From Eledone cirrhosa (taxonomy: Eukaryota), in contig OZ024741.1 in NCBI GenBank assembly GCA_964016885.1, positions 223,944,001 to 224,008,000 on the forward strand: a stretch of 64,000 nucleotides of DNA. The letters run 5' to 3'. The translations under genes and the position numbers were made by a program. Under the pieces are notes generated by a model. That model did no database searches. It was not told the origin of the DNA and saw nothing but the letters and a program-made list of their open reading frames with translations. Position 1 is the first letter of the stretch; each line of letters opens with the position of its first letter. Shown piece by piece: positions 34,119 to 34,533 of the stretch.

Positions 34119-34308
34119 AGAAATGGCTTCTACAGGACTAGAACTGTTTCATTCCATTCGGAGGAAATTATCAGGAAAGCCCATCTGATGATTTCCTTCA
34201 AATGAAACAGTTCTAGTCCTGTAGAAGCCATTTCTATATTAAAAATTTATATTCTGCGCTATGTATTAAGTACCTTACTGTGGTTACCCTCGATTGAACC
34301 CGGGCTAA
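34119..34308 (+). mobile_element. Hammerhead-motif fold-back element, unit 1
   Basis: Perfect 35-bp arms at 34119-34153 and 34201-34235. CTGATGA at 34185-34191, GAAA at 34204-34207, GTA at 34221-34223. Confidence 0.65.
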
Positions 34309-34340
34309 ACATATATATATAGAGAGAGAGAAAGAGAGAG

Positions 34341-34533
34341 ATGGCTTCTACAGGTCTAGAACTGTTTCATTCAAAAGAAATCATCTGAAAAGCCCAGGGC
34401 TTTCCTGATGATTTCTTTCGAATGAAACAGTTCTAGACCTGTAGAAGCCATTTCTATATTAAATATTGTATATACTCTACTAATGTATTGAGTACCTTAC
34501 TTACTGTATTTACCCTCAATTGAACTCGGGATA
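34341..34533 (+). mobile_element. Hammerhead-motif fold-back element, unit 2
   Basis: Perfect 32-bp arms at 34341-34372 and 34420-34451; tail homologous to unit 1. Confidence 0.65.
34398..34449 (+). ncRNA. Candidate type I hammerhead ribozyme
   Basis: Stem I ggctttc/gaagcc with one bulge; core CTGATGA 34405-34411; weak stem II ttc-tttc-gaa; GAAA 34424-34427; stem III Acag/ctgT around a near-palindromic loop; GUA triplet at 34441-34443. Confidence 0.55.

What the first reader, a model, noticed from the sequence alone, without database searches (positions are those of the whole stretch)
34119..34533. Tandem fold-back elements built from head-to-head hammerhead motifs (retrozyme- or PLE-like)
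Seen: two ~220-bp-period units sit in (TA)/(GA) microsatellite. Each is a hairpin whose right arm reads CTGATGA-stem-GAAAcagttctag(a/t)cctGTA-gaagcc, and whose left arm is the antisense copy with a damaged core (CTGATAA, CAGATGA). At the diagnostic site each hairpin's arms match each other (ggacta/tagtcc in unit 1, ggtcta/tagacc in unit 2) rather than the other unit. Knowledge: minimal type I hammerheads with palindromic stem III occur in Penelope-like pLTRs and retrozymes and can cleave as dimers. Inference: a non-coding, ribozyme-bearing, microsatellite-targeting retroelement that copies its own inverted arm at each insertion. A read-through transcript would sequester the ribozyme in dsRNA.
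Basis: partly seen in the sequence, partly recalled or inferred. Interest (0 to 1): 0.75.

Follow-up and report, generated by a model that had tools for sequence, protein, structure and literature searches.

The report
Cap-marked twin Penelope hairpin insertions
These two DNA hairpins are tiny insertions of a known kind of jumping gene (a Penelope-like element), each likely made by copying the capped start of its RNA twice and joining the copies head to head, which offers a direct test of how these elements make their long-puzzling mirror-image ends.

Summary
The hairpins are real, but they are not a retrozyme. They are two independent, old, very short insertions of a Hydra-clade Penelope-like retrotransposon (PLE) family with at least 15,000 copies. 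Longer relatives carry a CCAAT/TATA promoter, the same hammerhead, a tail and a 713-aa RT/GIY-YIG ORF. Inverted arm plus one-sided tail, (TA)n targets and opposite-strand hammerhead pairs are published PLE features. The copies add mechanistic detail. Arms pile up at the first base of hammerhead stem I, 30 nt after the TATA box, often with an extra non-genomic G. All 21 three-base spacers among 50 listed double-full-length copies are C-A/T-G, as in unit 2. One arm is short and the other long in 51 of 56 copies, and in 20 of 48 neither arm can be a copy of the other. Best reading: two cDNAs of the capped, uncleaved 5' end of the sense RNA, primed on opposite target strands and end-joined. This argues against the published antisense self-priming idea. 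Cap, start site and ribozyme activity are inferred, not shown. Earlier scan notes reached twin priming and the start-site idea on other windows; none of the 16 notes listed mentions the extra G.

The parts
34001..34121 (.). (TA)n(GA)n target microsatellite left of unit 1
34119..34182 (-). Unit 1 short arm: antisense hammerhead with damaged core (CTGATAA) and a 5-nt duplication; reaches the predicted +1 base (34181) plus one non-genomic G (complement at 34182)
   Evidence: genomic base before +1 is a pyrimidine in 26 of 31 promoter-bearing subfamily A copies
34183..34184 (.). 2-nt junction insert of unit 1
34185..34312 (+). Unit 1 long arm: hammerhead core without the 5' strand of stem I, then the PLE tail
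34313..34340 (.). Short (TA)n(GA)n spacer between the two insertions
34340..34395 (-). Unit 2 short arm: antisense hammerhead with damaged core (CAGATGA); reaches +1 (34394) plus non-genomic G (complement at 34395)
34395..34397 (.). C-A-G centre: predicted cap-derived base on each arm around one untemplated A/T
   Evidence: same centre type in 21 of 21 three-base spacers and 5 of 5
34398..34449 (+). Complete type I hammerhead-like motif: bulged stem I 34398-34404/34444-34449, CUGAUGA 34405-34411, 3-bp stem II with U.U at 10.1-11.1, GAAA 34424-34427, near-palindromic stem III 34427-34442, predicted cut after 34443
34450..34535 (+). Rest of unit 2 long arm: short-end region (about 34455-34470) and tail up to the long end, followed by (CA)n(TA)n

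Best explanation
Each unit is a miniature insertion of a Hydra-clade Penelope-like retrotransposon, likely formed when both cut strands of a TA-rich target prime reverse transcription at two different sites near the capped 5' end of the element's sense RNA and the two short DNA copies are then joined head to head. Steps: (1) shown in sequence: long relatives read promoter (CCAAT, TATA) - hammerhead - tail - ATG - ORF - long microsatellite UTR - same promoter/hammerhead/tail. (2) Inferred: RNA polymerase II starts 30 nt after the TATA box, at the first base of hammerhead stem I, so the ribozyme is the 5' end of the mRNA. (3) Inferred, by analogy with PAc in vitro: the protein nicks both strands and starts copying at two internal sites, about 10-30 nt past the cleavage site (short arm) and at the tail end (long arm). 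(4) Inferred: primed in the 5' repeat, both copies run off the RNA end after about 60 and 130 nt and often add a C opposite the cap; primed in the 3' repeat, they give the ordinary long truncated copies. (5) Partly shown: the two 3' ends are joined by microhomology, bluntly or with short inserts. The template was uncleaved, so the ribozyme is not needed for this step; it likely works only as a dimer or with protein help, and in these two copies it is likely silent.
For: Family size: 7,163 exact core and 15,048 exact tail matches. Architecture: 56 of 90 tail-selected loci have an inverted arm. ORF link: hammerhead core directly upstream of the ORF start in 17 of 20 loci; intact 713-aa ORF in 3 of 5 fetched stretches. 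Start site: TATA-to-stem-I distance 30 nt in 21/25 (B), 17/17 (E), 26/31 (A; range limited by my pattern), 29 nt in 3/4 (C), mostly pyrimidine|purine; 42 of 96 arm ends within 1 nt of that base, 35 within 2-9 nt, 5 past it. Extra G: 79 of the first 100 of 2,128 non-C matches (hand count); among the first 50 of 284 loci with both arms full length, 21/21 three-base spacers are C-W-G, 14/14 one-base spacers G/C, 45/50 have at least one G (hand count); 15/20 at +1 against 2/13 at internal ends, P=0.0013. Two primers: 51/56 long+short without tail selection; short arm reaches further 5' in 20/48; four long fold-backs have non-palindromic junctions. One source: three diagnostic sites agree in both arms 26 times, disagree 0 times in 42 young copies. 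No partner of a promoter-bearing arm ends at +1 (0 rows; 12 rows, 8 loci, pass it). PAc nicks and extends both strands from two internal sites (PMC11167929); an extra G marks capped full-length L1 insertions (PMC11702581).
Against: No RNA data: only assembled contigs were served and the two RNA runs held one low-depth contig, so start site and cap are unshown. The 14 one-base spacers are equally explained by the genomic C at -1. The G of a C-A-G centre could come from a templated insert on one side. The one search test includes copies picked by likeness to unit 2; without them it is 5/8 against 1/5. Later deletion at palindrome centres could also make arms unequal. One RNA versus two RNAs of one source locus cannot be told apart; L318 joins a 5'-repeat-primed arm to a 3'-repeat-primed one. 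An ORF was tied directly to subfamilies B and E, not to the window's subfamily A. Pfam gave only sub-threshold GIY-YIG hits for this ORF and no RT hit.
Confidence: 0.7

Rival explanations
1. Snap-back: one cDNA folds back on itself near its 3' end and is copied outward until it stalls before the tail, making the inverted arm (closest to the first reader's idea).
For: Arms are near-identical within a copy; 21 of 48 junctions have 2 or more nt of microhomology; one-base-spacer centres could be drawn as tight loops.
Against: In 20 of 48 the tail-less arm holds 5' sequence that the tailed arm lacks; C-W-G centres leave no priming stem; long fold-backs have an inverted arm that matches the far end, not the junction.
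Confidence: 0.1
2. Two primers, but the stop is caused by the folded or protein-bound hammerhead and the extra base is untemplated C addition; no start site lies here.
For: The stop coincides with the outer end of stem I; reverse transcriptases often add untemplated bases (general knowledge).
Against: Fixed TATA spacing across subfamilies with different spacer sequence; partners of read-through arms never stop there; G is rare at internal ends, 2/13.
Confidence: 0.12
3. Self-priming on an antisense transcript, as proposed for Adineta Penelope palindromes (PMC3846280).
For: Published reading of head-to-head palindromes (passages).
Against: Ends match a sense TATA promoter and carry a G on the sense 5' side of both arms; the two outer ends are two fixed sites.
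Confidence: 0.04
4. A non-autonomous fold-back or retrozyme family that spreads as a unit.
For: Some centres recur (7 of 29 copies most like unit 2 share one).
Against: Centres vary widely; recurrent ones sit on microhomology and occur with different tails; no tandem of like monomers; a continuum of lengths leads to a coding element.
Confidence: 0.04

Closest known systems
Hydra clade of C-terminal-endonuclease PLEs, incl. Hydra-1_Obim (Craig et al. 2021, PMC8557442; section 11, passages and supplement rows seen)
   Same: RW(K/R), DKT, CxCx5C linker, CxxC and CxH around E/N, no CCHH, hammerhead present, (TA)n targets, inverted truncated copy plus tail.
   Different: Unit about 4.8 kb because of a microsatellite-filled UTR against generally <3 kb; tail about 60-70 nt against 30-40 nt; most sampled copies are hairpins under 200 nt.
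Minimal hammerheads of metazoan PLEs (Cervera and de la Pena 2014, PMC4209133; results and discussion read)
   Same: Type I core, palindromic stem III, predicted dimer; pairs on opposite strands 100-700 bp apart already reported in Schistosoma.
   Different: U.U instead of the conserved G10.1-C11.1 pair, 3-bp stem II, 4-bp stem III with 8-nt loop; cores only 12-63 nt apart in the short class.
Poseidon element PAc in vitro (Frangieh et al. 2024, PMC11167929; main text read)
   Same: Both strands nicked and extended, two internal start sites defining the tail, AT-rich target, uncleaved RNA used.
   Different: That paper does not explain inverted copies or report cap read-through; its hammerhead overlaps the start codon.
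Palindromic inverted pLTRs of Adineta Penelope (Arkhipova et al. 2013, PMC3846280; passages)
   Same: Head-to-head palindromes, TATA and Inr in the repeat, one-sided tail.
   Different: Read there as antisense self-priming; the data here favour two sense-templated cDNAs.
L1 twin priming and cap G (PMC11702581; passages)
   Same: Second primer on the other target strand, end-joined inversion, extra G at full-length 5' ends.
   Different: L1's two cDNAs cover adjacent RNA parts; here both cover the same 5' stretch.
Non-LTR retrozymes (10.64898/2026.07.22.740005; first part and passages)
   Same: PLE-derived, type I hammerhead, no ORF in the unit.
   Different: Retrozymes are direct tandem arrays with a hammerhead in each unit; these are inverted, dispersed truncations.

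Membership tests
EN+ Penelope-like element | Single ORF with RT and C-terminal GIY-YIG joined to this terminal repeat | tested here: met
   713-aa ORF with YRDD and GIY-YIG-like end directly after the repeat; Pfam GIY-YIG below cut-off, E 0.0049; shown for subfamilies B and E, not directly for A
EN+ Penelope-like element | Partial tandems and inverted 5'-truncated copy | tested here: met
   L320 has sense cores at both ends of the ORF; 56 of 90 loci with inverted arm
EN+ Penelope-like element | One-sided tail | tested here: met
   51 of 56 long+short; two end classes
Hydra clade | RWK-like, DKT, CxCx5C, CxxC/CxH, no CCHH | tested here: met
   RWR, DKT, CNCx5C, CDLC, CMH read; two spaced Cys between IVY and YIG in B, one in E
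Hydra clade | Placement in an RT tree | not tested
   Reference proteins seen only in a supplement
Hydra clade | (TA)n insertion preference | tested here: met
   Flanks (by eye, not counted)
Type I hammerhead ribozyme | CUGANGA, GAAA, NUH core | tested here: met
   Invariant or nearly so in 20 copies
Type I hammerhead ribozyme | Covarying stems | tested here: met
   Stem I: 2 of 6 pairs change on both sides, few independent events; stems II and III nearly invariant, loop II variable
Type I hammerhead ribozyme | G10.1-C11.1 pair | tested here: not met
   U.U in all 20 aligned copies
Type I hammerhead ribozyme | Self-cleavage | not testable with these tools
   No pile-up of 5' ends at the cut site: 3 of 90 against 29 of 90 at the stem I edge
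Non-LTR retrozyme | Direct tandem of units each with a complete hammerhead | tested here: not met
   Units 84.5% alike, separate insertions; one complete hammerhead in four arms
Non-LTR retrozyme | Circular RNA | not testable with these tools
   No raw RNA reads served

The most novel reading that the evidence does not exclude
These hairpins are paired strong-stop cDNAs: a dimeric PLE protein copies the capped 5' end of one sense RNA twice, from two start sites on opposite target strands, and the genome keeps the cap as an extra G on both arms. That would explain the inverted repeat and the tail of PLE insertions in one step, map PLE start sites from DNA alone, and place the hammerhead at +1 where cutting would remove the cap.
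Probability: 0.55. Interest if true: 0.7.

Novelty: new member of a known kind. Interest (0 to 1): 0.5.

Why it matters
As an object this is ordinary: two of many thousand dead PLE stubs. Its value is as a record of mechanism. How PLEs make inverted repeats and tails is called undefined in PMC8557442, and PMC3846280 proposed antisense self-priming. A cap-like G on both arms at TATA+30 separates the models and gives a simple assay with a young family that still has intact ORFs.

Tried and rejected
Rfam scan: no hammerhead hit. Monomer folding: right arms fold no better than shuffles, z 0.8; the hammerhead fold is -4.5 kcal/mol against -7.4 for the best fold, and the stem III region self-pairs at -15.6 as a duplex against -1.4 as a hairpin. 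Sequence upstream of L024's centre as true upstream: unique in the genome, a junction insert. Neptune assignment: dropped after the motif check. Splice acceptor as cause of the sharp end: no shared upstream exon in centres. Fossil cleavage ends: 3 of 90, no excess. Later gene conversion between arms: singletons shared 0 of 34 in the old group. RNA: runs X1/X2 had 0.10 of the words and one contig of depth 2.4, no evidence. PDB search gave nothing. Atlas search unavailable. Lunse et al. 2017 not held. One search's ambiguity filter misclassed several junctions, so I do not rely on it.

Full report
Observation. Both hairpins are in the sequence as described. Unit 1 spans 34119-34312 and unit 2 34340-34535; each is an inverted arm, a centre, a sense arm and a one-sided tail. 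Only unit 2's sense arm is a whole hammerhead; unit 1's starts at the core. The units are 84.5% identical to each other and 90-93% to copies elsewhere, so they are two old, separate insertions in one microsatellite. Rfam found no hammerhead.

Family. The genome (3.0 Gb) holds 7,163 exact matches to a 28-mer of the core and 15,048 to a 28-mer of the tail. Of the first 90 tail matches on C1, 43 are fold-backs with both cores, 12 have an inverted arm and a shorter sense arm, 1 a distant inverted arm, 22 none within 1 kb, and 12 are tail only. Several subfamilies differ in stem I and loop II. In 20 aligned copies 95.8% of stem cells pair; two stem I pairs change on both sides (few independent events), stems II and III hardly vary, and position 10.1-11.1 is U.U in all, against the G-C pair stressed in PMC4209133. 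The stem III region pairs far better as a dimer (-15.6 kcal/mol) than as a hairpin (-1.4).

Autonomous partner. Walking upstream from longer copies led through a microsatellite-rich UTR to RT and GIY-YIG pieces in the same sense as the hammerhead. In L102 the repeat and tail run straight into an ATG; 17 of 20 such loci have the core just upstream, and 3 of 5 fetched stretches hold an intact 713-aa ORF. Its motifs fit the Hydra clade as defined in PMC8557442 section 11; no tree was built and Pfam support is weak. The window's own subfamily has long promoter-bearing copies (104 matches), but no ORF of its own was reached. The host is probably an octopod; this comes from earlier notes and a by-eye likeness to Hydra-1_Obim and was not tested.

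Where arms end. Centres vary but within a narrow zone: of 96 arm ends in 48 fold-backs selected only on core or tail, 42 lie within 1 nt of the first base of stem I, 35 within 2-9 nt, 14 further in and 5 past it (9 pairs with indels skipped over all sets). In promoter-bearing copies that base is 30 nt after the TATA box in 21/25 (B), 17/17 (E) and 26/31 (A, range limited by my pattern), mostly at a pyrimidine|purine step; a CCAAT lies upstream in 41 of 78. The base before it is genomically a pyrimidine, yet hairpins show G: 79 of the first 100 non-C matches. Where both arms are full length (284 loci, first 50 listed), all 21 three-base spacers are C-A/T-G, all 14 one-base spacers G or C, and 5 loci show genomic bases on both arms (hand count); in the window's subfamily 5 of 17 are C-W-G, and unit 2 has the same centre. 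G follows 15 of 20 arms ending at +1 but 2 of 13 ending inside; without copies picked by likeness to unit 2 this shrinks to 5/8 against 1/5. An extra G marks capped full-length L1 insertions (PMC11702581, passages). Only 3 of 90 arms begin at the cleavage site, so the template was uncut.

Two primers, one source. Without selecting on the tail, 51 of 56 fold-backs have one long and one short outer end, 4 scored short+short (three look like damaged long arms) and 1 long+long. The short arm reaches at least 3 nt further 5' in 20 of 48, the long arm in 11; in the first group neither arm can template the other unless the centre was deleted later. Four long fold-backs have an inverted arm matching the far end only. 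Arms share subfamily markers: 26 agreements and no disagreement in 42 young copies; loop II agrees in 29 of 48 old copies against 10.9 expected. Private changes are in one arm (0 of 34 shared in the old group), so later conversion is not the cause. L318 is a mixed case. Junctions: 21 with 2 or more nt microhomology, 4 with one, 8 blunt, 15 with inserts.

Mechanism. Shown: architecture, end positions, extra G, asymmetry, concordance. Inferred: start site at stem I, cap copying, nicking and priming of both strands (as PAc does in vitro, PMC11167929, main text), end joining. Untested: cleavage. Confidence 0.7; PLE membership about 0.95.

What is known. Inverted copy plus tail (PMC8557442), opposite-strand hammerhead pairs (PMC4209133) and junction palindromes (PMC3846280) are in print; the last reads them as antisense self-priming. 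My nine paper searches turned up no paper linking PLE fold-backs to a cap G or paired strong-stop cDNAs; the Penelope-like/strong-stop/cDNA search returned none. The library lacks most subscription papers and Lunse 2017, and bioRxiv supplements were closed. PMC13282606 (passages) has no mention of hammerheads. After I had formed my reading, earlier scan notes on the same genome showed twin priming, start-site centres, long/short asymmetry and Hydra assignment; they are AI notes, not independent support. A word search for cap and untemplated returned none.

Verdict. A new member of a known kind, not a retrozyme; interest 0.5 for the testable mechanistic footprint.

Noticed in passing
window 34552-35439: RTE-like LINE fragment right after unit 2, with a 5' inversion (34560-35040 reads on minus, 35040-35420 on plus, ending in (TAGA)n) and an apparent 9-nt target duplication; a twin-priming-type insertion.
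   Followed up: partly
window 36458-37570: 1.1-kb near-perfect palindrome (97.8%); its centre scores as microRNA hairpins below Rfam cut-offs. Origin not determined.
   Followed up: no
G000 listing, e.g. C1:17106966-17106993: Arms ending at +2 also carry an extra G in several copies, suggesting a second start site one base downstream.
   Followed up: no
stem III loop, window 34437 and L007, L017, L020, L023, L030: The T-to-A change that improves the stem III palindrome recurs in one arm only; possibly template-switch correction of a quasi-palindrome.
   Followed up: partly
L320:927-5724; L316, L317, L319: The element's 3' UTR holds about 2 kb of mixed TA/TG microsatellite, so it likely spreads microsatellites through the genome.
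   Followed up: no
L280 (C1:196961500-196962200): Single long+long perfect palindrome, with a matching centre 2.3 kb away; an exception to the long/short rule.
   Followed up: no
L032-L036, L040, L044: One truncated copy sits inside a larger repeated segment at seven places near the start of C1.
   Followed up: no
window 60361-64000 and 9956-23445: A 16-bp satellite of 225+ copies running off the window end, and a 13-kb strand-skewed GT-rich array.
   Followed up: no
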